Of a DNA stretch of 64,000 nt, positions 8,617 through 57,277 are shown piece after piece; position 1 is the first letter of the stretch, and every line of letters starts with the position of its first letter. The translations under genes were made by a program, and so were the position numbers. This DNA is from Escherichia phage phi92. The notes beneath the pieces were generated by a model. That model did no database searches. It was not told where the DNA came from and saw only the letters and a program-made list of their open reading frames with translations. The stretch is taken from sequence record NC_023693.1; one strand, written 5' to 3'.

Positions 8617-9339
8617 TTAAGCAATGATTGCTGCGATATTAGGTTTAACAAAGGTAGATGGTTTCATAATTTTACCTTTGTCATCAAAGAATACGTACAC
8701 CTTTTGAACTTCGTTATATACAGCATGTACCCCAGTATAAGAACCTTCTGCACGATCTTTGCTTCGCATCTCGATAGCATCGCACTCTTTTTCAAGAGCT
8801 TCAATAATATCCTTAGTTTCCCAAATAGCCAGGAGTTGCTTCTTGGTAGGATACTTGGACTCATTACTATTCAACACTTCACGCATAACCTTCTTCTCGT
8901 TATAAACAGAACGCACCAAAGTATCTCGTGCCATACGTGTAAGTGTAAGAGACATTAGGGCAAATTGCAAGTCATTTTCTACCATTTTATCAAATTCAAT
9001 GATAACATCGTAGATGTTTTCTGCCAGAACATCTCCTGTCGGCATTTCCAGAGCTTTATCAACACCTTCTTTACCAAAGAACATAAATGCCAGGTAGGAT
9101 GCTACCACAAAAATATCTGCTGCTGCATCAAGTAATTCAACGTGATCATTTTCCTGTGCTGCTGCTTGGAACTCTTTTAGTTCTTCGCGTACAAAAGAAA
9201 GTTGAGCTTCAAACATCTCTTGAGTAAATTCTGGAGTTACTCCACCGCGTGCCTTAGCATTCCAAGCAACAATTTGATCGGCAGCTTTGATAAAGAAGCT
9301 ATTGTCCACTTTTACTTGTTTGAAAAAATTCTCGATCAT
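8617..9339 (-). CDS. MazG-like nucleoside triphosphate pyrophosphohydrolase
   Basis: EELKEFQAA ... ELLDAAADIFVV resembles the MazG/HisE EExxE ... ExxD metal-binding helix pair. Confidence 0.5.
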   Translation of the reverse strand: MIENFFKQVKVDNSFFIKAADQIVAWNAKARGGVTPEFTQEMFEAQLSFVREELKEFQAAAQENDHVELLDAAADIFVVASYLAFMFFGKEGVDKALEMPTGDVLAENIYDVIIEFDKMVENDLQFALMSLTLTRMARDTLVRSVYNEKKVMREVLNSNESKYPTKKQLLAIWETKDIIEALEKECDAIEMRSKDRAEGSYTGVHAVYNEVQKVYVFFDDKGKIMKPSTFVKPNIAAIIA

Positions 9340-11393: not shown

Positions 11394-11798
11394 TTATTGT
11401 AGCTTAAGTGAACTGCGAAGACGTTCCTCTTGCTGATCACGAATATGTTGTGGAACCTCATGAATTGAATCGTTACCGTGCCTATTCTCCACAACTAAAG
11501 AAATAACTTGATAACCAAACTCTTCAGCAAGAGTTAAATAGGGTTTAAGTTCTTTTTCTGTAGTAGAGGTATTAGAAACAATAATCTTTTCAACACCATA
11601 CTGCATATATTTTTGTACTTTGACACGACACCATTGGTGTGCTTTATGGATATTCTCTTGTTTCCACTCATACACACCATCTTCAGTGTAGTGGTATTGA
11701 TCTGCCTCACAAATAGGCCAATGATTTTCAGAGATAATTTCTGCTACTGTAGATTTACCTGCACCTGAAACACCACGTAAAATGATAAGTTGTTTCAT
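11394..11798 (-). CDS. polynucleotide 5'-kinase (kinase domain only)
   Basis: P-loop GVSGAGKST and IIVSNTSTT resembling the T4 Pnk kinase domain; no HAD phosphatase domain attached. Confidence 0.65.
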   Translation of the reverse strand: MKQLIILRGVSGAGKSTVAEIISENHWPICEADQYHYTEDGVYEWKQENIHKAHQWCRVKVQKYMQYGVEKIIVSNTSTTEKELKPYLTLAEEFGYQVISLVVENRHGNDSIHEVPQHIRDQQEERLRSSLKLQ

Positions 11799-12731
11799 TT
11801 AGCCTCCAAAGAAGTTTTCTATTTCTTTACGTCGCTCTTGTGGATCTAAAGCAGCCCATTGAGTCTTAGTAAAGTTGTTTCGAAGCCATTCTAGCAAAGT
11901 ATAATATTCTTCGTCAACAATTTGTTTAGCATTGTTTGGGTTGTCCCAAATCATATCCCACTTCTTATTGCCACCACGCATAAGGAATTTTTTAGCAAGA
12001 TAGTATGGTGACTTAATCTTTAACAGTAAGTTAAACGGGTAGTTTGTTTCACGAACAACAAACCCTTCGTGTTTACAATGTTTAGACATTTCAACAACAT
12101 CTGAAAATTTAATCATCGGATAAACTTCAGGACGTTTAAATTTTGTAACAGATGCAATCCCATCAAGAACACCTTCAGGTAACATGAAACTTGTCCCATC
12201 AAGATTTTGAATTCTTGCTCCAATTAAGTATGCGCCTGGTTCTTCTTCGACAATATGTGGGTCAGAAGGATCACAGATTTCAAAAAGAAAAGTTGCTTTT
12301 GCACTTTCTGTCCACTTAATGAAATACTCTATGTCGTCACACTCGGAAACAATACGGTTCTTTGCCATAATTGCGAAATCTGATTCTAGGCTCCCTGTTG
12401 TTGATACAACAAGTTTCCCTTTGTACACACCTACAGATGCCACAAAACCGTTTACTTTACGGACAGCATCTACAATTTCGTCTGCTGGAAGATCTGTACC
12501 ATTTTCAAAACGATTAAAGATTTTAGTAAAAGGCCAAATAACAACATTGTCTTCTGAGTCAACAACCAACCCACGACAATCTAAAAGTCGTTTGTCAACG
12601 TTCCACAAGTTATCCCAGAATACATTGTTTTTGTATTTAAGTACAGCAAGACCAGCATACTCTCCAGATTTAACTTCTTTTTTATGCACTAAACCTTTTG
12701 CAATCAGGTCATCACAATTGAACTTAGCCAC
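11799..12731 (-). CDS. RNA ligase (Rnl-type nucleotidyltransferase)
   Basis: motif I KVNGF, motif IV EGFVVRE, motif V LLKIKSPYY; adjacent to kinase and phosphoesterase. Confidence 0.7.
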   Translation of the reverse strand: MAKFNCDDLIAKGLVHKKEVKSGEYAGLAVLKYKNNVFWDNLWNVDKRLLDCRGLVVDSEDNVVIWPFTKIFNRFENGTDLPADEIVDAVRKVNGFVASVGVYKGKLVVSTTGSLESDFAIMAKNRIVSECDDIEYFIKWTESAKATFLFEICDPSDPHIVEEEPGAYLIGARIQNLDGTSFMLPEGVLDGIASVTKFKRPEVYPMIKFSDVVEMSKHCKHEGFVVRETNYPFNLLLKIKSPYYLAKKFLMRGGNKKWDMIWDNPNNAKQIVDEEYYTLLEWLRNNFTKTQWAALDPQERRKEIENFFGG

Positions 12732-12732
12732 C

Positions 12733-13284
12733 TTAATCTCCTTTGATTATCTTATGATGATCTACAACAATAATATCACGCTTATCCATAATAGAGATGA
12801 TTTCGTCAAAATGCAAGATTTTCCCGTGTGCATCCCAACCAACATCCAACATTTTCCCATACAAATGATCAGGGAATGATCCGTGAGAGTGTCCGTGTAG
12901 CATGATTGATCCATGCCCTTGTTTATTCCAGGCAGCCATAGGGTAATGACTTAAGACGAAGAACAGCTTCTGATATTTCACTTCGTCATAATACAAAACT
13001 TCTCCATACTCTGCAAGCACTTTTCTGTGTTTGCTGTAATCATGGTTCCCAACACAGTAAGTAATATCCCCTTGGAGACGGGAAGCAATCTTACGGGTAT
13101 CTTCTTCAGTCCCGAAACAGAAGTCCCCAAGATGGTACATCTTTACTCCTGGTGTTGTGGCACATTTATTCCATGCTTCGATCAGTGCTTCTGTCATATG
13201 CTCCATATCTTCCCACGGACGATATTCAGGAGCAAACTCTCGGATACGTTTGTGCATAAAATGCAAATCACTTGTAATAAACAT
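12733..13284 (-). CDS. calcineurin-like metallophosphoesterase
   Basis: SDLHFMH, GDFCFG, GNHD, HGHSHG metal-binding motifs. Confidence 0.75.
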   Translation of the reverse strand: MFITSDLHFMHKRIREFAPEYRPWEDMEHMTEALIEAWNKCATTPGVKMYHLGDFCFGTEEDTRKIASRLQGDITYCVGNHDYSKHRKVLAEYGEVLYYDEVKYQKLFFVLSHYPMAAWNKQGHGSIMLHGHSHGSFPDHLYGKMLDVGWDAHGKILHFDEIISIMDKRDIIVVDHHKIIKGD

Positions 13285-13646
13285 TAGTATAATCCCTCGC
13301 TGAATAGTTCACTGTTGTGACCATTTCTTTCGTAGTTAATTTGTTTGGCGTTATCTGCAATGATATAAGCATCTTTGCGACTCCACCAGTTATAATACTG
13401 ATCAATAAACCCTTGATTATCAGGTAAGCAAAACAGTTTATCGATCAATCCTGCATCTTTTAAAACATTAAGTTGTGCAGATAGTACAGGATTTGCATGC
13501 CTAACACAAGGAATAATTAACTCTTCGCCATTGTTAAGAATATACTTATTCGCAGCGCATACTATAACACGTTGAGCATAGTGATCCTCACCAATCCAAG
13601 TAAGAGGTTGGTAACAAATATCATGTTGATTAGTAGCGCACATCAA
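13284..13646 (-). CDS. hypothetical protein (120 aa)
   Basis: ORF only. Confidence 0.4.
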   Translation of the reverse strand: MMCATNQHDICYQPLTWIGEDHYAQRVIVCAANKYILNNGEELIIPCVRHANPVLSAQLNVLKDAGLIDKLFCLPDNQGFIDQYYNWWSRKDAYIIADNAKQINYERNGHNSELFSEGLY

Positions 13647-13801
13647 TTTTCTCCGTACTCTTTTAATCTATCAGCGAAAAAACTGTAATCAGGAAGTAAA
13701 AGATCATTACTCATATCGTTACAGTTTTCTTCCTCTTTATAGATAAAACGCCCTTCATCCTCTTCTTGCTCTGACCAAACTGAGTAATGCATAATACCTA
13801 C

Positions 13802-14143
13802 TTAATAATTAACACGTTTAATTTCAACACCATAGGATGAAATAAAATTTTCCTTAGCTAACATATATTTACCAGCAGCAGAAGGATTTGATGTATGAAC
13901 ATAGATAGTTTTAAGAGCATCCCATTCACCCGCGTACAACATACATTCTACGTCTAAGAACGCATGATATCCTTCTTGATCTTCTCCAAGATCATTATCG
14001 AAGTGTATCTCTGAGATATTATTGAAATTATCTTCATCTGAAACAAAAGATAACCAATCCTCAAAAGATTTTAACCAAATGGCATCCTCATAACCATAAT
14101 CTTTAGGATCTCTTAAATCGTCTAACCAAAGAATTTTAGCCAC
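13802..14143 (-). CDS. hypothetical protein (113 aa)
   Basis: ORF only. Confidence 0.35.
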   Translation of the reverse strand: MAKILWLDDLRDPKDYGYEDAIWLKSFEDWLSFVSDEDNFNNISEIHFDNDLGEDQEGYHAFLDVECMLYAGEWDALKTIYVHTSNPSAAGKYMLAKENFISSYGVEIKRVNY

Positions 14144-15140: not shown

Positions 15141-15334
15141 TTCTTAATAAACTCCAATACAGGTACGTGATCAGCAGTTAAAGTTACACAATTGTAACTT
15201 ACCTTTTCAACTTCAGAGAATGCTTCAACCCAAAGCAAGAAATTCTCTTTAGCTTCTTCATAATTCAATGTTGACTTAACAACATGGAACTCACCAAGAA
15301 TTACTCTATAGATTGTTTGCATAGTTTGATTCAT
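15137..15334 (-). CDS. hypothetical protein (65 aa)
   Basis: ORF only. Confidence 0.3.
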   Translation of the reverse strand: MNQTMQTIYRVILGEFHVVKSTLNYEEAKENFLLWVEAFSEVEKVSYNCVTLTADHVPVLEFIKK

Positions 15335-15400
15335 TTATTTTTCCTTTGTTTAAAATGTGTTAAACAATCGCAAATGCTTGTGACGCACTTTGTGATTCCA

Positions 15401-15769
15401 CTAATTAATGTCAGCACTATGATTGTTGAAAGTATAGGATACTCCATCGCCCAAGTCAACATGAATCTCAACTCCTAACTGTCTTTCTAATGGTAAACGT
15501 TTTGAGAATTGATAATTACAAAGTTTACAGTCTAAGTCAAGCAATTCATGTTTGCTTAAACCTGCAACGATAACTTTGCTTCCCGCTGTCCACTCAATAC
15601 CTTCAAAGTTATCTCTTCTTTTCAAAATGTCAAGTAAGAAGATGATTTGTTGCCATTCCGTAGACAAGTCTTCTTCATAGAACGCAGAACAAAAAGTTTT
15701 ATCATCGTAGAAAGCATACATTATGCCTCCATCTATTGTTTCACTTCTAACGTAACGTGTGACCCTCAT
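15401..15769 (-). CDS. hypothetical protein (122 aa); first gene of the leftward block
   Basis: ORF adjacent to divergent regulatory region. Confidence 0.4.
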   Translation of the reverse strand: MRVTRYVRSETIDGGIMYAFYDDKTFCSAFYEEDLSTEWQQIIFLLDILKRRDNFEGIEWTAGSKVIVAGLSKHELLDLDCKLCNYQFSKRLPLERQLGVEIHVDLGDGVSYTFNNHSADIN

Positions 15770-16110
15770 TATTTCCTCCTGTACGGCTCTGTAACGAGCT
15801 AATAGCCTCTAAGATATGCAATCACCTTACCTCACAGTAAAACTCGTTACAATCGTTTTTAGGAGGTTTAGGTTGTACTTAAAAATAATCTAAAAAGGTG
15901 TTGACAAACGCAAAAAAGTATGCTACCCTAACCCCCGAAAAACGCCGAGCGCAGCGAGGGGGTGTTATCTAATCTTGTGATACATGATCTAACAGACAAC
16001 TGAGTAGTCTACATATAGCACTATGTTATGTCTATAATACTAACATACATACTCTATACTAACAATAGATTCTTTATTAATTTTATTATTAATTAAATAA
16101 TAAATATCTA

Positions 16111-16139
16111 TTGACTTTAGATCTATCTGTATGTAGAGT
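16111..16139 (+). promoter_or_regulatory. sigma70-like promoter upstream of prs-like gene
   Basis: TTGACT - 17 nt - TAGAGT. Confidence 0.5.
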
Positions 16140-16178
16140 AGAGAACATAAAGTCCTAACTCAACTAAGGAGATAAACA

Positions 16179-17072
16179 ATGAAAGTTAGTATTCTACATG
16201 GTGTTGGCTGTTATGTTACTGATGTAGACGTTAAAGTCTTTACATTCTCTGGTGGAGAACAACATGTTCAACTAGACACGAATCTATCAGGTTTCAATCA
16301 TGCTACAGACAGAATCTTACTCTCTTTAGAAGTAAGATCTGCTAAAGACTTGATGACTTTGGTTATGACTAAGAATGCATTGGACAATATGCTATATCAT
16401 AAACCATATTGTGTTGATTTGCTCATGTTGTATGTGCCATATGCACGACAAGACAGAGTGTGTGAACCTGGGGAAGCATTCGGAGTTAAAGCATTTGCTT
16501 CTATAATTAATTCATTAAATTTCTCACGTGTTATCGTTGCTGATCCACATAGTGATGTTACTCCAGCGGTGTTTGACAGACTCTGTGTAATACCTCAAGA
16601 AGAAATTGCTTACGAAACTTTAAAGTGGAAGTTACGTATGGAGAATTTTGCTCTTGTTAGTCCTGATGGTGGTGCTCTTAAGAAAATATTTAAATTATCT
16701 AAGAAAATGTCTTTAGATGTGTTCTGTGCAGAGAAGGTTAGAGATACTGCAACAGGTGCTATTGTTCGTACAGACATTTCTGTACAGGATTTCAATAAGC
16801 GTAACCTGATGATCGTAGATGATATCTGTGACGGCGGTAGAACTTTTATTGAATTGGCTAAAGTGCTACGTGCTCGTAACGCAGGTAAGATTGAGTTATA
16901 TGTTACACACGGTATCTTTTCTAAAGGTCTTAAAGAGTTAAGTGAGCACTTTGACTGCATTCATTCTCTTAATGTGTGGGAAGATAACATCCAAGAAGAT
17001 TCCGGTGTTCTTGTTAAGAATCAGTCAGATTTGCAACAACAAATTGTATCTCCATACGTGTGGAATTTTTAA
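16179..17072 (+). CDS. prs: ribose-phosphate pyrophosphokinase family protein (PRPP synthetase-like; possible ADP-ribose pyrophosphokinase)
   Basis: PRPP-binding loop MIVDDICDGGRT, VSPDGGALKK, VIVADPHS; strong RBS AAGGAG. Confidence 0.85.
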   Translation: MKVSILHGVGCYVTDVDVKVFTFSGGEQHVQLDTNLSGFNHATDRILLSLEVRSAKDLMTLVMTKNALDNMLYHKPYCVDLLMLYVPYARQDRVCEPGEAFGVKAFASIINSLNFSRVIVADPHSDVTPAVFDRLCVIPQEEIAYETLKWKLRMENFALVSPDGGALKKIFKLSKKMSLDVFCAEKVRDTATGAIVRTDISVQDFNKRNLMIVDDICDGGRTFIELAKVLRARNAGKIELYVTHGIFSKGLKELSEHFDCIHSLNVWEDNIQEDSGVLVKNQSDLQQQIVSPYVWNF

Positions 17073-17082
17073 ATAATAAGTG

Positions 17083-17111
17083 TTGACAATAGGGAGTATG
17101 CTTAGTAAGAT
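17083..17111 (+). promoter_or_regulatory. sigma70-like promoter overlapping an 8-bp-arm palindrome, upstream of NAMPT-like gene
   Basis: TTGACA - 17 nt - TAAGAT; palindrome GGGAGTAT ... ATACTCCC spans about 17091-17116. Confidence 0.5.
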
Positions 17112-17143
17112 ACTCCCACACTAACAAACAAGGAGACATAACT

Positions 17144-18877
17144 ATGAATATTTTTGCACCTTTTGCTACTGATTGGTATAAACCTGGTCACAAGCAGATG
17201 TACAACCAAAATACAAAACTCATTTTCTCTAATTTAACTCCTCGTAATGATAAAAACTTTGCACACTATGCAGATCGTGAAGCACGTGGTGTGATTGTTT
17301 TAGGTATTCGTCGAGCAGTCACTGATGCTCTTGTAACTATGTGGGATAGCTTCTTTAAAATGTCTCGTAGTGCAGCAGTAAATAAATTTTATCGTATGTC
17401 TAAAAATGCATTAGGTGCTTCTGCTCCTTCTGCTGAATGTTGGGAAGAATTGCACGATTTAGGTTATCTTCCGCTAGAAGTTCGATCTCTGCCAGAAGGT
17501 GTTTTGTGTCCTATTGGTGTTCCTGTGTTTACTGTGCATAATACTTTAGAAAAATTCTTTTGGTTAACTAACTATGTGGAAACACTATTGTCAGATGAAA
17601 CTTGGAAGACAATGACTAATGCCACAGCAGCTTTTCAGTATAAGCGTATCGCTATGGCGTATGCGATGGCAACGTGTGATAACATTGATCACGTTAATTT
17701 CCAGTGTCATGACTTTAGCCTACGTGGTTTAAGCAATATCGAAGATGGTTATAAGAGTGGTATCGCTCATTTGGCATCTTTCACAGGAACAGATAACATT
17801 CTGGCTATTGAGACTGTGCATGATTATTATGGTATTGATTATGATCAGTTTGTTGCAGGTTCTATTCCGGCAACAGAACATTCAGTAGCAACGACTAACA
17901 TTGGAGCTATTGTTGAAGATCTGAAGAAACATTTCCCACATCTTAAAGATGATGTTGATGGGCTTCGTTATGTAGCAGAGAAAGAGTTTCTTCGCCGCTA
18001 TATTGAAGAAATTGTTCCAGAAGGTTTTTGTTCATATGTAGCAGATTCTTATGATTACTGGGCTGTCTTGACTCGCATTCTGGTAGAATTGAAAGAGTCC
18101 ATTATGTCACGAAATGGTCGTCTTGTTATTCGTCCAGATTCAGGAGATCCGGTTAAAGTTGTTGCAGGATACAATGTTGAATCTTTTGCTAACTATGAAG
18201 ACCTTTTAAATAATGGTATTGCTACAGCCACTGAAGTAGTTCATTTGGCTGATGTTAATAAGTATTACAATGTTCTTCAGGATTGCAGTGTTGCTGATTG
18301 TATTGATGAAACTTATGAGATTCCTTATTGTGAAGCAGTAGGTTCTATTCAAATCCTTTGGGAAGTGTTTGGTGGTACTATCAACCGAAAAGGCTACAAG
18401 GTTCTTGATCAGCACATCGGTATGATTTATGGTGATTCTATTACTGTTGAACGAGAATACGAGATCTTACGCCGACTGAAGAAGAAAGGTTTTGCAGCTT
18501 CCAATATTGTATTTGGTGTTGGTAGTTATACTTATCAGTTCAATACACGAGATACTTTTGGTTTTGCTGTTAAAGCAACAGGTAGTATCATCGGTGAACA
18601 CGAAATTTTGGTAAGTAAGGAGCCTAAAACTGATCCTGGTAAACGCTCTGCAAAAGGTTTTATTAAGGTTGTTAAGGATACAAATGGTAAACTTTCTCTT
18701 GTGGATAATCTTTCTTTTAAAGATATCCAAGATGAAGACAATGAGTTAAAAGTTATCTTCAGGGATGGTACGGTTATTACACCACAAGTAGAAGGACGTG
18801 ATGAAACATTTACTGATATCCGCAACCGTGTTGATGTAGAGGTTCTTCGTACTATGGGAACCATCCAGGTTGACTAA
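17144..18877 (+). CDS. nadV: nicotinamide phosphoribosyltransferase family protein (NAMPT/NadV-like)
   Basis: N-terminal FATDWYKPGHKQMY matches the NAMPT TDSYK region; 577 aa with C-terminal extension. Confidence 0.85.
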   Translation: MNIFAPFATDWYKPGHKQMYNQNTKLIFSNLTPRNDKNFAHYADREARGVIVLGIRRAVTDALVTMWDSFFKMSRSAAVNKFYRMSKNALGASAPSAECWEELHDLGYLPLEVRSLPEGVLCPIGVPVFTVHNTLEKFFWLTNYVETLLSDETWKTMTNATAAFQYKRIAMAYAMATCDNIDHVNFQCHDFSLRGLSNIEDGYKSGIAHLASFTGTDNILAIETVHDYYGIDYDQFVAGSIPATEHSVATTNIGAIVEDLKKHFPHLKDDVDGLRYVAEKEFLRRYIEEIVPEGFCSYVADSYDYWAVLTRILVELKESIMSRNGRLVIRPDSGDPVKVVAGYNVESFANYEDLLNNGIATATEVVHLADVNKYYNVLQDCSVADCIDETYEIPYCEAVGSIQILWEVFGGTINRKGYKVLDQHIGMIYGDSITVEREYEILRRLKKKGFAASNIVFGVGSYTYQFNTRDTFGFAVKATGSIIGEHEILVSKEPKTDPGKRSAKGFIKVVKDTNGKLSLVDNLSFKDIQDEDNELKVIFRDGTVITPQVEGRDETFTDIRNRVDVEVLRTMGTIQVD

Positions 18878-54521: not shown

Positions 54522-54863
54522 ATGGAGCTAACAGAAGTATGGGATATCGCTAAAGAGGCGATTATCCCTCTTATTGGTGTAATCTGGGTGGTCTTCAAAC
54601 AGAAGATAGATGATATAGCAAGTGATTTGGATAAAATGGAAGACAAATACCGCGAACTAGAAAAGAAGTTGGTGTTTGTTGAATCCACTTATGCTACCAA
54701 AGCAGAACTTGCTCAAATGCTTAACCAGATCAACTCTACATTAATGGCAAATAATACTGCCTTAGAACAGAAGATTGAAAAAATAATGGATTTAAAAAAT
54801 GCTCCTGTTCAATTAATGCTAGAGGAGATTACGAAGCGCACACAAAGTAAGGACAAAAATTAA
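54522..54863 (+). CDS. hypothetical protein with N-terminal hydrophobic helix and coiled coil
   Basis: ORF only. Confidence 0.3.
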   Translation: MELTEVWDIAKEAIIPLIGVIWVVFKQKIDDIASDLDKMEDKYRELEKKLVFVESTYATKAELAQMLNQINSTLMANNTALEQKIEKIMDLKNAPVQLMLEEITKRTQSKDKN

Positions 54864-57277
54864 TGGCGAATTTTCCAACATATCCTGCTACGACACTAGA
54901 ACAAGGTGTTGATCTGGTTATATTCTCGTCTAACCAGATGCATGATGTTATTAATGGGGATGCTACAGCAACTGTAGAAACCGAAACAGGTTTAATACCT
55001 ACACTGCGTAAAGCACTTGTTGATAACTTCTTCTTTAAGAGTCCTGTTGCTTGGTCAGCAGGATCAACTGAAACTGTATTTAACCAGTTACGTTATTTTG
55101 AAAACGGTATCTTGAGTGGGTACTATTATGCCCCATCTGCCACTACTGCGAACCCTGTACCTATGCAGGGCACACCTGTAGGGGACAGTAACTGGACTCT
55201 GTACGCTCTTAAAACTGAACAGTTAGCTTCAGATGTGTATCCTTGGTATTTTAAAGGTGCTACAGGATATGAAACAGAAATCAGTCCTCCTTATATCTTT
55301 GATAATGCTATTGTCACCATTAACGGTGTAATTCAGATTCAAGGTGAAGCATTTACTATCAAAGATAGTAAAATTATTCTGGCAGAACCATTAGGTTTAG
55401 ATCCGTCTACTGGTCTACCTAACAAATTGTTTGCTTTTATTGGTAAAACAACAGCCTCTACTTCTTACGTAGAGAAAAACCTTTTGTCATCTACCACTGG
55501 TGCAGCAATGGTTGGTCTTCCATCTGGAGGCAACCTGTTACAAGCTCAATACTTTGTAACGCCTGAGCAGTTTGGTGCAATTGGTGATGGAGTTACCGAT
55601 GATACTCAAGCAATTTTAAAAACTATTACTTTCGCTAACACGAATAACATTCAAGTACGTGCAGATAAGAATTATAGATTCACAAGCTCAATTGCTATGT
55701 CTGGTGTTCGTTGGTATGGTGGTACATTCACTGGTAACGGTGGAACAATGATTTCTACTGTGTCCTGTTGGATGGAAAACGTTCGCTTTGAAAAATGTTA
55801 TGTTAAGATGTTAGGTGGTGATTGCCGATTCTATCGTAATATCTTCTCCAACGCAACATCTACAGCAGCATTCTTAATGCAAGCAATGACAAGTGAAGGT
55901 ACGTTGGACTTCAGTTACAACGAAATGTATGGTTGTAAATATGCGATCCTGCAACAAGGTACTGGAGAAGTAATGACCTATGGGCGTTACTCTAACAACT
56001 ATATTCACGATATCAAAGGTGATGCTATTGAACTTAACGTAGTTCAAAAACACTACACTGAAGGTTTGATTATCGAGAATAACCACATTGCTAACGTAGA
56101 TGCTTCTGGACAAGGTGCAAACTGGGGTATTGGTATTGGTGTAGCAGGTAGTGGCCCATATGGTGTTGATGTTCCTGATTCACAATATGTACGTAACTTC
56201 AGTATCGTTGGGAATAGGGTTTACAATTGCCGTCAATGTCTACACGTTGAAATGGGTAAAAACTTCACGATACGTGATAATGAAGTTTATCCTAACACAG
56301 CAGTTTCAACAGGTACAGGTTTAACTACTTGTGGTGTTGCATTATACGGATGCCAAGATTTTGAAGTTGATGGTTTAACTGGTTATCTGCTTAATGATCC
56401 ATCTGTTTCAACACGCATGGTCTTTATTGACTGGGGTGTTAACAATGGTAGATATGCGGGGCCACCAATTAACTTTACAATTAAGAATTTGGATATTCCA
56501 GAATCTTCAATTGAGATTGCAACATCTGGATCAGATGCCTGGGAAAACTCTACAATTGTTAGTAATATCAATTGTAATGTTTTTAAATGGCGTGGGCTAC
56601 CATCTAGCTCTACCTTTAATAATATTCGTTGCCGTAGTATTGACTTTATTGGTCAACACGGAAGCGGAGAAGGAAGTGGTGGCGGTTTCTATACTCGCAG
56701 CCAATTCACGTATATGAAGTGGGTAGGATGTACAGCACTTAGCGGAGATGAAACAACAGTTTCTTTTGCTAAAATCTACACTGATCGTTGCGATCAGGTT
56801 GGAAATAACTTTGGTGTTCCAACTGCTGTTGATGGTACAGGTCATCGTGGGCCAGTTTTAACTACTATTTCTGAACAATATTTTACAGCTTATGATGAAT
56901 TCCCAGGTGGGCGTGAATTCCCTACTGGAACAGTTATTCATTGTGCAAGCGGTAAAAAACATGTTGTTACAGTAGGTGGTGCTTTCTTTAGTGACAACGA
57001 GAAAATAAAAGCAACTGTTACAGGTCAAACCTATCTACAGTCTAATGCTTTAAACTGGGCTAGTAATGGCTACGCTAAAGCAGCAGGTACTAAGATTGTT
57101 ATTCCAGGTGCAGGTGCAAATGGCGGCGATCTTGTGACAACTATAGCACGTGCTACATACGTGACAAATAGTTTGTACACAATAGATATTGCAGATCCAA
57201 TTGTAACACCTACAGCAGAGAATACACAAATTAAAGCTCTGAATCCTGTTACTTTTGTTACTGTCAATAATGCTTAA
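54863..57277 (+). CDS. tailspike with right-handed beta-helix (pectate-lyase-like) domain
   Basis: GAIGDGVTDDTQAI motif typical of beta-helix tailspike depolymerases; 804 aa; terminator follows. Confidence 0.65.
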   Translation: MANFPTYPATTLEQGVDLVIFSSNQMHDVINGDATATVETETGLIPTLRKALVDNFFFKSPVAWSAGSTETVFNQLRYFENGILSGYYYAPSATTANPVPMQGTPVGDSNWTLYALKTEQLASDVYPWYFKGATGYETEISPPYIFDNAIVTINGVIQIQGEAFTIKDSKIILAEPLGLDPSTGLPNKLFAFIGKTTASTSYVEKNLLSSTTGAAMVGLPSGGNLLQAQYFVTPEQFGAIGDGVTDDTQAILKTITFANTNNIQVRADKNYRFTSSIAMSGVRWYGGTFTGNGGTMISTVSCWMENVRFEKCYVKMLGGDCRFYRNIFSNATSTAAFLMQAMTSEGTLDFSYNEMYGCKYAILQQGTGEVMTYGRYSNNYIHDIKGDAIELNVVQKHYTEGLIIENNHIANVDASGQGANWGIGIGVAGSGPYGVDVPDSQYVRNFSIVGNRVYNCRQCLHVEMGKNFTIRDNEVYPNTAVSTGTGLTTCGVALYGCQDFEVDGLTGYLLNDPSVSTRMVFIDWGVNNGRYAGPPINFTIKNLDIPESSIEIATSGSDAWENSTIVSNINCNVFKWRGLPSSSTFNNIRCRSIDFIGQHGSGEGSGGGFYTRSQFTYMKWVGCTALSGDETTVSFAKIYTDRCDQVGNNFGVPTAVDGTGHRGPVLTTISEQYFTAYDEFPGGREFPTGTVIHCASGKKHVVTVGGAFFSDNEKIKATVTGQTYLQSNALNWASNGYAKAAGTKIVIPGAGANGGDLVTTIARATYVTNSLYTIDIADPIVTPTAENTQIKALNPVTFVTVNNA

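What the first reader, a model, noticed from the sequence alone, without database searches (positions are those of the whole stretch)
16111..18877. Two-gene Prs-like plus NAMPT-like operon: candidate NAD+ reconstitution counter-defence module
A PRPP-synthetase-family gene (PRPP loop DDICDGGRT) sits directly upstream of a nicotinamide phosphoribosyltransferase-family gene (TDWYK N-terminus, 577 aa with a C-terminal extension), each behind its own TTGACA-type promoter. This is the first operon after the strand switch. A lytic phage has no obvious need for de novo NAD salvage. The same two-gene architecture has been reported for phage NAD+ reconstitution, where the Prs-like enzyme pyrophosphorylates ADP-ribose and the NAMPT-like enzyme joins it to nicotinamide, countering NAD+-depleting immunity (Thoeris, DSR, CBASS-type effectors). 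Whether this copy uses ADPR or ribose-5-phosphate cannot be read from the sequence.
Basis: partly seen in the sequence, partly recalled or inferred. Interest (0 to 1): 0.85.

Follow-up and report, generated by a model that had tools for sequence, protein, structure and literature searches.

The report
Phage NAD+ rebuilding operon (NARP1)
These two phage genes almost certainly rebuild NAD+ from the fragments left when bacterial immune systems destroy it, but the system is published and these genes, in this phage lineage, are already listed in its catalogue.

Summary
Two intact, adjacent + strand genes, 16179-17072 (297 aa, PRPP-synthetase family) and 17144-18877 (577 aa, nicotinamide phosphoribosyltransferase family), open the rightward early region of a Justusliebigvirus (phi92/Bas60-like) coliphage.

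- The 577-aa protein's best solved relative is the SPbetaL1 Namat crystal structure (E 2.4e-118; human NAMPT 3e-48).
- It keeps every NAD+-contacting residue and carries the Namat-specific adenine-clamp motif GSYTYQFNTRD. PRPP-using Nampts have GGGLLQ there.
- The 297-aa protein groups with phage Adps rather than cellular Prs (200/200 bootstraps). It keeps the catalytic lysine (K186) and has the same DDICDGGRT loop as Bas63 Adps.

This is a basic two-gene NARP1: Adps converts ADP-ribose plus ATP to ADPR-PP, and Namat joins that to nicotinamide to give NAD+. It is not new. Osterman et al.'s supplementary tables already list the phi92, PaulScherrer (Bas60), alia and VEcB copies.

Two corrections:
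- The extra length of Namat comes from internal insertions, not a C-terminal extension.
- The upstream promoter-like site is TTGACT and weak.

Side observation: the lineage also encodes an unlinked homologue of Adpp, the ADPR-1''-phosphate phosphatase.

The parts
16111..16139 (+). Promoter-like site upstream of adps (TTGACT, 17 nt, TAGAGT; 9 of 12)
   Evidence: and the sequence. It is a weak consensus match with no experimental support.
16166..16171 (+). Shine-Dalgarno sequence AAGGAG for adps
   Evidence: Read directly from the sequence; it lies 7 nt before the ATG at 16179.
16179..17072 (+). adps: ADP-ribose diphosphokinase (Prs-family, phage Adps clade), 297 aa
   Evidence: A sequence identical to it is listed for phage phi92 in Osterman Table S1 with 'Namat within 10 genes: Yes'.
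16734..16736 (+). Codon for Adps catalytic Lys186
   Evidence: It aligns with SPbetaL1 Adps K162 (the K162A mutant is inactive, per Osterman 2024) and with E. coli Prs K194.
16818..16844 (+). Adps ribose-phosphate binding loop DDICDGGRT (aa 214-222)
   Evidence: Identical to the Bas63 Adps loop; cellular Prs has DDMIDTGGT.
17083..17111 (+). Promoter-like site in the adps-namat spacer (TTGACA, 17 nt, TAAGAT; 10 of 12)
   Evidence: The spacer differs from Bas60 at only 1 of 71 nt.
17092..17117 (+). Perfect 8-bp hairpin (GGGAGTAT / ATACTCCC) overlapping the putative -10 element
   Evidence: MFE -15.3 kcal/mol, z = -2.26, 6 of 200 shuffles fold as well. Function unknown.
17144..18877 (+). namat: nicotinamide ADP-ribose transferase (Nampt-family, Adps-associated clade), 577 aa
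   Evidence: The Bas60, alia and VEcB orthologues are labelled 'Adps-associated' in Osterman Table S2.
17240..17284 (+). Namat selectivity-clamp loop (SCL), aa 33-47: PRNDKNFAHYADREA
   Evidence: This loop is 9-11 residues longer than in PRPP-type Nampts. Its third residue, Lys37, fits the published Arg/Lys/Tyr rule. The fourth residue is Asn38, not an aromatic.
17879..17881 (+). Codon for Namat His246, in the ATEHS motif that holds the family's catalytic histidine
   Evidence: Invariant column in the Namat/Nampt alignments. [quoted passage not shown]
17900..17974 (+). Namat insertion 1 (aa 253-277); part of it is specific to this lineage
   Evidence: Gapped in SPbetaL1 Namat and partly gapped in Bas63.
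18131..18133 (+). Codon for Namat Arg330
   Evidence: It aligns with SPbetaL1 R306, whose R306G/A mutants lose activity.
18170..18340 (+). Namat insertion 2 (aa 343-399), shared with Bas63 Namat
   Evidence: The AF2 model gives it pLDDT below 50, so its structure is unresolved.
18521..18553 (+). Namat selectivity-clamp helix (SCH) motif GSYTYQFNTRD (aa 460-470)
   Evidence: Matches the published signature GSX-phi-X-phi-X-phi-TRD, with aromatics Y462 and F466 at the adenine-stacking positions.

Best explanation
This is a basic two-gene NARP1 (NAD+ reconstitution pathway 1) module of a phi92/Bas60-like Justusliebigvirus.

When an NAD+-depleting defence cleaves NAD+ into ADP-ribose and nicotinamide (SIR2-HerA/Nezha, type I Thoeris, DSR1/2, SEFIR, Kongming or SPARSA-type effectors), the pathway runs in two steps:
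1. Adps (16179-17072) transfers pyrophosphate from ATP to the terminal ribose of ADP-ribose, giving ADPR-PP.
2. Namat (17144-18877) displaces that pyrophosphate with nicotinamide, giving NAD+ directly. This restores the pool the phage needs.

What is shown here: gene integrity and adjacency, clade membership, conservation of the catalytic and NAD+-contact residues, the Namat-specific adenine clamp, and purifying selection.

What is inferred: the chemistry and the counter-defence phenotype (from experiments on homologues in Bas63, SPbetaL1, FADO, ICP1 and DyoEdafos), and early expression from host-type promoters.
For: Source lineage:
- The window is 98-99% identical to Justusliebigvirus phages, and the pair is present in 54 of 55 matching records.

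Namat:
- The best solved-structure hit is SPbetaL1 Namat 9W5X/9W5W (E 2.4e-118, 399 bits), against about 168 bits for human NAMPT.
- Over the C-terminal clamp region alone the E-values are 9.4e-41 for Namat and 1.3e-16 for the PRPP-type 7YQO entries ('Pre-B cell enhancing factor related protein', taken to be the Xanthomonas Nampt).
- All 20 NAD+/NAM-contact positions of 9W5W are conserved or conservatively replaced. These include the adenine-stacking Y462 and F466, which are Gly and Gln/Glu in the NARP2-type Nampts of ValKK3 and RB43.
- The motif GSYTYQFNTRD fits the published Namat signature.

Adps:
- It is 32-38% identical to phage Adps and 18-25% identical to cellular Prs.
- The Prs | Adps bipartition has 200/200 bootstrap support.
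- All 3 discriminating columns are in the Adps state and all 16 shared catalytic columns are conserved.
- K186 aligns with the essential SPbetaL1 K162.
- All NCBIfam Prs equivalog models score far below their cutoffs.

Context and literature:
- Osterman et al. list phi92 (sequence identical to the window Adps), PaulScherrer/Bas60, alia and VEcB in their Adps and 'Adps-associated' Namat tables. They report that 97% of Adps-clade genes sit next to a Namat.
- Comparison with Bas60 gives 26 synonymous against 6 nonsynonymous codon changes.
- No Nmnat is annotated in the 99%-identical Eryne genome, and its one 'nucleotidyltransferase' is Pol-beta type.
- Homologues were validated experimentally in Bas63, SPbetaL1 and FADO, ICP1, DyoEdafos and Paenibacillus foliorum.
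Against: - No enzyme or phage from this lineage has been assayed.
- Identity to the biochemically characterised proteins is moderate: Adps is 27% identical to SPbetaL1 and 32% to Bas63; Namat is 45% and 44%.
- The SCL position that stacks on adenine in Bas63 (Trp43) is Asn38 here, with Phe39 next to it, so clamp geometry is not established.
- Namat enzymes keep PRPP-dependent NMN synthesis in vitro, so some NMN production cannot be excluded.
- No structure or residue-level specificity rule exists for Adps. Its ADPR preference here rests on clade membership alone.
- The Nmnat check relied on annotation of a relative in which most genes are 'hypothetical'.
Confidence: 0.87

Rival explanations
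1. Canonical salvage. The first enzyme is a true PRPP synthetase, the second a true Nampt that makes NMN, and host NadR or PncC/NadD completes NAD+. This would be general metabolic boosting, or a NARP2-like route that relies on host adenylyltransferases.
For: Generic family models name them this way, and every database record is annotated this way. [quoted passage not shown]
Against: - Adps-clade placement is supported 200/200, and the Prs equivalog models score far below their cutoffs.
- The SPbetaL1 homologue yielded ADPR-PP from ADP-ribose plus ATP but no product in the ribose-5-phosphate test of Fig. 2D, and Bas63 still overcame defence in a pncC nadR double-deletion host.
- The adenine-clamp motif is present, and it is absent from PRPP-type Nampts.
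- No phage Nmnat was found.
- The host already has Prs.
Confidence: 0.06
2. The chemistry is NARP1, but the main role is housekeeping. The module recycles ADP-ribose and nicotinamide released by the phage's own NAD+-consuming enzymes, for example the Sir2-family protein encoded elsewhere in this lineage, rather than countering host immunity.
For: Close relatives encode a Sir2-family protein (PF02146, 1.3e-22) and a Poa1p-type Macro protein. The module is a core gene pair of the genus rather than a variable accessory.
Against: In Bas63, ADPR-PP was detected only when a defence system was present. NARP1 deletion phenotypes in Bas63 and FADO appear specifically on defence-carrying hosts. Nothing is known about the function of the phage Sir2.
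Confidence: 0.06
3. The genes are a decaying or inactive remnant with no current function.
For: None specific. The only hints are the large insertions in Namat and the non-aromatic fourth SCL residue.
Against: - Both reading frames are intact.
- All catalytic residues are kept.
- Synonymous changes dominate, 26 to 6.
- The pair is conserved at 95-99% identity in 54 records.
- The second insertion is shared with the functional Bas63 protein.
Confidence: 0.01

Closest known systems
NARP1 of Escherichia phage Bas63 (JohannRWettstein) genes 79-80 (Osterman et al. 2024, bioRxiv 10.1101/2024.02.11.579819)
   Same: - Same gene order (adps, then namat) on one strand with a short spacer.
- Identical Adps loop DDICDGGRTF, plus the DPHS and VTHGIFSKG motifs.
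- Namat SCH GSYTYQ(F/Y)xTRD.
- A long SCL loop with Lys at the third position.
- A shared large internal Namat insertion (593 aa against 577 aa).
- E. coli host.
   Different: - Only 32% (Adps) and 44% (Namat) identity.
- A different phage subfamily: Stephanstirmvirinae rather than Ounavirinae.
- The fourth SCL residue is Asn38 instead of the adenine-stacking Trp43.
- An extra 13-residue stretch (aa 262-274) and a short C-terminal tail.
- Not tested experimentally in this lineage.
NARP1 of Bacillus phage SPbetaL1 (Adps WIT26982, Namat WIT26983; PDB 9W5X/9W5W; Lan et al. 2026, PMC12774641)
   Same: The catalytic Lys (K162 = K186 here), Namat R306 (= R330), and every NAD+ contact residue are conserved. 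The SCH motif is near-identical (GSFTYQYNTRD against GSYTYQFNTRD).
   Different: SPbetaL1 Namat is 491 aa and lacks both insertions. Its SCL uses Arg40 for stacking and is 6 residues shorter. Its Adps loop reads DDLSSFGGT. The phage is temperate and infects a Gram-positive host.
NARP2 (Nampt + Nmnat) of Vibrio phage KVP40-type and T4-like phages
   Same: The Nampt-family fold and catalytic core (the D/Y pocket, the His of the EHS motif, the RPDSG motif).
   Different: NARP2 Nampts have GGGLLQ in place of the aromatic SCH and a short SCL. They are not next to an Adps and they need a phage Nmnat. None of this applies here.
NARP1-AP (Adps-Adpp-Namat, Vibrio phage Gary; Osterman et al. 2026 preprint 10.64898/2026.01.28.702374) and RyDEP-containing NARP1 (DyoEdafos; 10.64898/2026.05.28.727677)
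   Same: The core Adps and Namat enzymes.
   Different: There is no Macro-domain or RyR-domain gene in or beside the operon here. The lineage's only Adpp homologue lies about 80 kb away and carries an extra N-terminal domain of about 90 aa.
Cellular class I PRPP synthetase (E. coli Prs) and Nampt (human or Xanthomonas NadV)
   Same: Shared folds, shared ATP/Mg and phosphoribosyl chemistry, and conserved catalytic residues.
   Different: Adps lacks the DLHAxQIQGFFDxPVD segment and the C-terminal regulatory tail of Prs, and is 18-25% identical to it. Namat has the adenine clamp that Nampt lacks.

Membership tests
NARP1 (Adps + Namat) | A Prs-family protein that falls in the phage Adps clade, separate from cellular Prs | tested here: met
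   The NJ bipartition {6 cellular Prs} | {15 Adps-like + window} has 200/200 bootstrap support. All 3 discriminating columns are in the Adps state. An identical sequence is listed in Osterman Table S1. Limit: the Prs outgroup is small (E. coli plus 5 Actinobacteria).
NARP1 (Adps + Namat) | A Nampt-family protein of the Adps-associated (Namat) clade | tested here: met
   SPbetaL1 Namat 9W5X scores 399 bits against 168 bits for human NAMPT. Orthologues are labelled 'Adps-associated' in Osterman Table S2.
NARP1 (Adps + Namat) | adps and namat adjacent and co-oriented | tested here: met
   The spacer is 71 bp, both genes are on the + strand, and no terminator-like site lies between them.
NARP1 (Adps + Namat) | Catalytic residues whose mutation abolishes the pathway: Adps Lys (SPbetaL1 K162) and Namat Arg (R306), plus the D215/F189 pocket | tested here: met
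   K186; R330, D217 and F191.
NARP1 (Adps + Namat) | Namat SCH signature GSX-phi-X-phi-X-phi-TRD with aromatics at positions 3 and 7 | tested here: met
   GSYTYQFNTRD, aa 460-470, with Y462 and F466. ValKK3, RB43 and the 7YQO Nampt have GGGLLQ or GGALLQ.
NARP1 (Adps + Namat) | Namat SCL loop that supplies an adenine-stacking residue (third residue Arg, or Lys/Tyr followed by a stacking fourth residue) | tested here: inconclusive
   The loop is extended and its third residue is Lys37, as the rule requires. The fourth residue is Asn38 (Trp in Bas63), followed by Phe39. The stacking geometry needs a dimer model with ligand.
NARP1 (Adps + Namat) | Enzymatic activity: ADPR + ATP gives ADPR-PP, then ADPR-PP + nicotinamide gives NAD+ | not testable with these tools
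   Requires purified proteins and LC-MS. It has been shown only for homologues.
NARP1 (Adps + Namat) | The phage overcomes NAD+-depleting defence in a NARP1-dependent way | not testable with these tools
   Requires a deletion mutant and plaque assays. No Bas60 or phi92 data were found in the literature search.
NARP2 (Nampt + Nmnat) | A PRPP-type Nampt (GGGLLQ-type SCH-equivalent, short SCL-equivalent loop) | tested here: not met
NARP2 (Nampt + Nmnat) | A phage-encoded Nmnat | tested here: not met
   None of the 292 annotated features of the 99%-identical Eryne genome is an Nmnat. Its 'nucleotidyltransferase' gives only a weak PolyA_pol head hit. Many genes are hypothetical, so this is not exhaustive.
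NARP1-AP / RyDEP-extended NARP1 | A Macro-domain Adpp or RyR-domain RyDEP gene within or next to the operon | tested here: not met
   Ten flanking ORFs have no Macro or RyR Pfam hit. The lineage is absent from the NARP1-AP supplementary tables. An Adpp homologue exists but is unlinked.
Cellular PRPP synthetase (Prs) | Scores above the equivalog thresholds, and has the DLHAxQIQGFF and DxTGGT motifs and the C-terminal regulatory region | tested here: not met
   NCBIfam Prs models other than TIGR01251 score 50-100 bits against cutoffs of 296-536. Only the broad subfamily model TIGR01251 passes (118.7 against 113). The motifs read DPHSDV and DGGRT.

The most novel reading that the evidence does not exclude
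In this phage lineage NARP1 may be part of a dispersed three-enzyme pathway.

Close relatives (Eryne 54747-55481, outside the window) encode a Poa1p-type Macro protein that is conserved in about 53 Justusliebigvirus records. It is 41% identical (E 2e-36) to the validated ADPR-1''-phosphate phosphatase Adpp of Vibrio phage Gary, but it lies about 80 kb from adps-namat and carries an extra N-terminal domain of about 90 aa.

If it feeds ADPR to Adps in trans, this 'basic' NARP1 would also defeat aRES-type defence. The published estimate that 15% of NARP1 phages have the phosphatase comes from scanning only two genes either side of each operon, so it would be an undercount.
Probability: 0.3. Interest if true: 0.4.

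Novelty: already known. Interest (0 to 1): 0.15.

Why it matters
NARP1 explains how many lytic phages survive NAD+-depleting abortive-infection systems, and it matters when choosing or engineering therapeutic coliphages. For this locus the value is confirmatory.

It shows that the published Namat clamp signature and the Adps clade criteria let a raw-sequence reader tell NARP1 from ordinary Prs/Nampt salvage without wet work. Nearly all public records of this lineage still carry the old names, 'ribose-phosphate pyrophosphokinase / nicotinamide phosphoribosyltransferase'.

The only forward-looking element is the unlinked Adpp homologue. If it is functional, it would widen the range of defences this genus can evade.

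Tried and rejected
- AlphaFold2 of the 577-aa protein with the 5-sequence alignment gave a poor model (mean pLDDT 57.7, insertion 345-392 below 50). It was not used for any claim, and no fold search was run on it.
- Rfam scan of 15300-19800 for a riboswitch or leader (for example NAD+ or PRPP class) found only the edge of a tRNA and a sub-threshold GA-cis hit (E 0.4). Rejected.
- I looked for a Macro (Adpp) or RyR (RyDEP) accessory gene among 10 flanking ORFs and found none.
- I checked whether the relative's 'nucleotidyltransferase' next to the DNA polymerase could be an Nmnat. It gave only a weak Pol-beta/PolyA_pol head hit. Rejected.
- I searched the literature for an Adps structure, or any Bas60/phi92 NARP1 experiment, and found none.
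- The first bootstrap script timed out. It was redone with a fast NJ implementation.
- The first 50 kb of SPbetaL1 did not contain NARP1. The genes are at 130311-132604.
- Antisense ORFs inside both genes (for example 16610-16960 and 18535-18864, minus strand) were treated as spurious, because the sense frames have strong homology.
Full report
**What is there**

The window is a Justusliebigvirus, a phi92/phAPEC8-like coliphage of the Stephanstirmvirinae. The 3-kb region around the finding is 98.5-99.2% identical to Eryne, alia, arall, PaulScherrer (BASEL Bas60), VEcB and about 50 other records. A 20-kb stretch is 98.2-98.8% identical to the best records, so this exact isolate is not in the collection.

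The last leftward gene ends at 15769. A 409-bp gap follows, and GC skew changes sign at about 16 kb. The first two rightward genes are 16179-17072 (297 aa) and 17144-18877 (577 aa). Each has an AAGGAG ribosome-binding site, and they are 71 bp apart. They are followed by three tiny ORFs and a cluster of 15 tRNA genes. The quoted motifs, DDICDGGRT and TDWYK, are present.

**Family level**

The 297-aa protein matches PRPP-synthetase domains. It passes only the broad TIGR01251 subfamily model, and narrowly (118.7 bits against a cutoff of 113). The other Prs-named NCBIfam models score 50-100 bits against cutoffs of 296-536. PHROG 619 matches at 5.9e-91. The best solved relative is E. coli Prs at only E 6e-15.

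The 577-aa protein matches PF04095, NF006629 and PHROG 448 strongly.

**Is it NARP1 or ordinary salvage?**

Osterman et al. (bioRxiv 10.1101/2024.02.11.579819) showed that this two-gene arrangement in phage Bas63 is not Prs plus Nampt. It is Adps (ADPR + ATP gives ADPR-PP) plus Namat (ADPR-PP + nicotinamide gives NAD+). The pair counters SIR2-HerA, type I Thoeris, DSR1/2 and SEFIR. Adps proteins form a phage-specific clade, and 97% of its members sit next to a Namat.

Lan et al. (PMC12774641) solved SPbetaL1 Namat (9W5X/9W5W). They defined a selectivity clamp with two parts: a variable loop (SCL) and a conserved helix motif (SCH), GSX-phi-X-phi-X-phi-TRD. The aromatic residues of the SCH stack on the adenine of ADPR-PP/NAD+. 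Nampts lack this motif.

I tested these criteria on the window proteins.

*Namat*
- The top PDB hits are 9W5X/9W5W (E 2.4e-118), against 3e-48 for human NAMPT.
- For the clamp-containing C-terminal third alone, the values are 9.4e-41 for 9W5X and 1.3e-16 for the PRPP-type 7YQO entries (deposited as 'Pre-B cell enhancing factor related protein'; I take them to be the Xanthomonas Nampt).
- I aligned the protein with SPbetaL1 and Bas63 Namats and with the NARP2-type Nampts of ValKK3 (KVP40-like) and RB43. All 20 ligand-contact positions of 9W5W are conserved or conservatively replaced: D10, Y12, F191, S192, R194, D217, A243, R330, D332, G430, D431, S432, G460, S461, Y462, F466, T468, R469, D470, and K37 in the SCL.
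- The SCH reads GSYTYQFNTRD. The two Nampts read GGGLLQQLDRD and GGGLLQEVTRD.
- The SCL is 9-11 residues longer than in the Nampts. Its third residue is Lys, as the rule requires. Its fourth residue is Asn38, where Bas63 has the stacking Trp43, and Phe39 follows. That sub-feature is unresolved.

*Adps*
- I aligned it with 15 Adps-like proteins taken from Osterman Table S1, E. coli Prs and five actinobacterial Prs.
- The window protein is 24-38% identical to the Adps-like set and 18-25% identical to the Prs set.
- The Prs | Adps split has 200/200 bootstrap support.
- All 16 columns conserved across both groups are kept. All three group-discriminating columns are in the Adps state (DPHSDV rather than DLHAxQIQGFF).
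- K186 aligns with SPbetaL1 K162 and E. coli K194.
- The ribose-phosphate loop DDICDGGRT is identical to that of Bas63.

Comparison with Bas60 shows 26 synonymous and 6 nonsynonymous codon differences across the two genes. This indicates purifying selection.

**Excluding the alternatives**

NARP2 needs a phage Nmnat. None is annotated among the 292 features of the 99%-identical Eryne genome. Its single 'nucleotidyltransferase' gives only a weak Pol-beta-type hit.

The extended forms of NARP1 carry a Macro-domain phosphatase (Adpp) or a RyR-domain glycosidase (RyDEP) inside the operon. None of ten flanking ORFs has such a domain, and the lineage is absent from the NARP1-AP tables. The locus is therefore the basic two-gene form. 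By inference from the aRES study, it should be blind to ADPR-1''-phosphate.

1. Namat's extra length is not a C-terminal extension. It comes from internal insertions at aa 253-277 and 343-399. The second is shared with, and longer in, the functional 593-aa Bas63 Namat.
2. The site at 16111 is TTGACT-17-TAGAGT (9/12). Only 17083 is TTGACA-17-TAAGAT (10/12). Generic promoter-like hits are not enriched in the region. The specific TTGAC-N18-TAAGAT pattern is enriched in the window (10 against 2.5 expected) and recurs before the next small genes (18870, 19291). Host-type early promoters are plausible but unproven. No terminator separates the two genes, so co-transcription together with an internal promoter is the likeliest arrangement.
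3. Substrate preference can be partly read from sequence, through the SCH motif and Adps clade membership.

**Novelty**

None for the locus itself. Osterman Table S1 lists the phi92 Adps, whose sequence is identical to the window protein including Gly10. It also lists the PaulScherrer (MZ501100), alia and VEcB copies, all with 'Namat within 10 genes: Yes'. Table S2 labels their Namats 'Adps-associated'. The paper's text says the operon recurs in four BASEL phages.

What is still missing is any experiment on this lineage.

**Side observation**

Relatives of this phage encode a 244-aa Macro-domain protein at Eryne 54747-55481, outside the window. Its C-terminal 150 aa are 41% identical (E 2e-36) to the validated Adpp of Vibrio phage Gary. 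The full-length form is conserved in about 53 Justusliebigvirus records.

The published survey scanned only two genes on either side of each NARP1 operon, so it would have missed this gene. It may supply ADPR-1''-phosphate phosphatase activity in trans. However, the family is very widespread in phages that lack NARP1 (2,907 records), so this link is speculative.

**Verdict**

The mechanism is NARP1 with confidence of about 0.87. The novelty class is 'already known', and interest is low.

Noticed in passing
Outside the window: Eryne PQ529420.1 54747-55481 (-), L010:4747-5481: A 244-aa Macro-domain protein. Its C-terminal part is 41% identical (E 2e-36) to Vibrio phage Gary Adpp, the ADPR-1''-phosphate phosphatase of NARP1-AP. 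It lies about 80 kb from the NARP1 genes, has an extra N-terminal domain of about 90 aa, and its full-length form is conserved in about 53 Justusliebigvirus records.
   Followed up: partly
Outside the window: Eryne PQ529420.1 102114-102926 (-), L011:2114-2926: A phage-encoded Sir2-family protein (PF02146, 1.3e-22) in the same lineage as NARP1. It is a potential NAD+ consumer of unknown role.
   Followed up: no
window 11394-14143 (-): An RNA-repair-like cassette just left of the strand switch, plausibly a counter to anticodon nucleases. Its genes are:
- P-loop kinase (AAA_33; annotated as polynucleotide kinase in Bas60), 11394-11798
- T4 Rnl1-type RNA ligase, 11799-12731
- metallophosphoesterase, 12733-13284
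- a cREC_REC 'cyclic-phosphate processing receiver' domain protein, 13802-14143 (PF20274, 2.2e-14)
The cREC_REC ORF is annotated as 'nudix hydrolase' in Eryne, which my scan does not support.
   Followed up: partly
window 17083, 18870, 19291, 19974 (+): A recurrent TTGAC(A/T)-N17/18-TAAGAT promoter-like motif sits in front of successive small early genes. The pattern is enriched in the window (10 matches with at most 1 mismatch, against 2.5 +/- 1.5 in shuffles).
   Followed up: partly
window 17092-17117 (+): A perfect 8-bp inverted repeat, GGGAGTAT(N10)ATACTCCC, lies in the adps-namat spacer and overlaps the putative -10 element (RNA fold -15.3 kcal/mol, z = -2.26). It is conserved in Bas60. 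It could be an operator or an RNA processing or stability element.
   Followed up: partly
window 19625-22544 (+): A cluster of 15 tRNA genes lies immediately downstream of the NARP1 block. It includes one with an irregular anticodon loop (20508-20583, called 'tRNA-???' by ARAGORN and annotated tRNA-Lys in relatives).
   Followed up: no
window 18949-19170, 19185-19295, 19351-19617 (+): Three small genes follow namat, at least two of them with their own promoter-like sites:
- a 73-aa CxxC...CxxC zinc-ribbon protein (phrog_37033)
- a 36-aa hydrophobic peptide
- an 88-aa acidic protein (phrog_15056)
Their function is unknown, and no link to NARP1 was shown.
   Followed up: partly
window 15854-15973 (+), divergent intergenic region: A 20-nt imperfect inverted repeat (15854-15873 / 15925-15944) surrounds a TTGACA at 15901, next to a G+C-rich hairpin. 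The only Rfam hit is sub-threshold (GA-cis, E 0.4). Eryne annotates a 54-aa ORF here.
   Followed up: no
Osterman Table S1 entry FJ373894_00125 (Shigella phage Ag3); phrog_12872: An apparent Adps-Namat fusion. The Ag3 protein switches from Adps sequence (…DDICDGGRTFVE) straight into mid-Namat sequence, and PHROG 12872 (547-residue profile) matches both window proteins. It is either a real fusion or deletion, or a sequencing or annotation artefact.
   Followed up: no
PDB 9KE8/9KEO (second-best structural relative of the window Namat, E 1.7e-100): A deposited 'nicotinamide phosphoribosyltransferase' with a hybrid clamp motif, GAQTYQRNTRD. This is neither the Namat GS-aromatic pattern nor the Nampt GGGLLQ pattern. 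Its source and substrate preference were not determined.
   Followed up: no
window 8617-9339 (-): A MazG/PRA-PH-like nucleotide pyrophosphohydrolase (PF01503, 3.2e-7, measured on the Eryne orthologue) lies next to the ATP-dependent DNA ligase.
   Followed up: no
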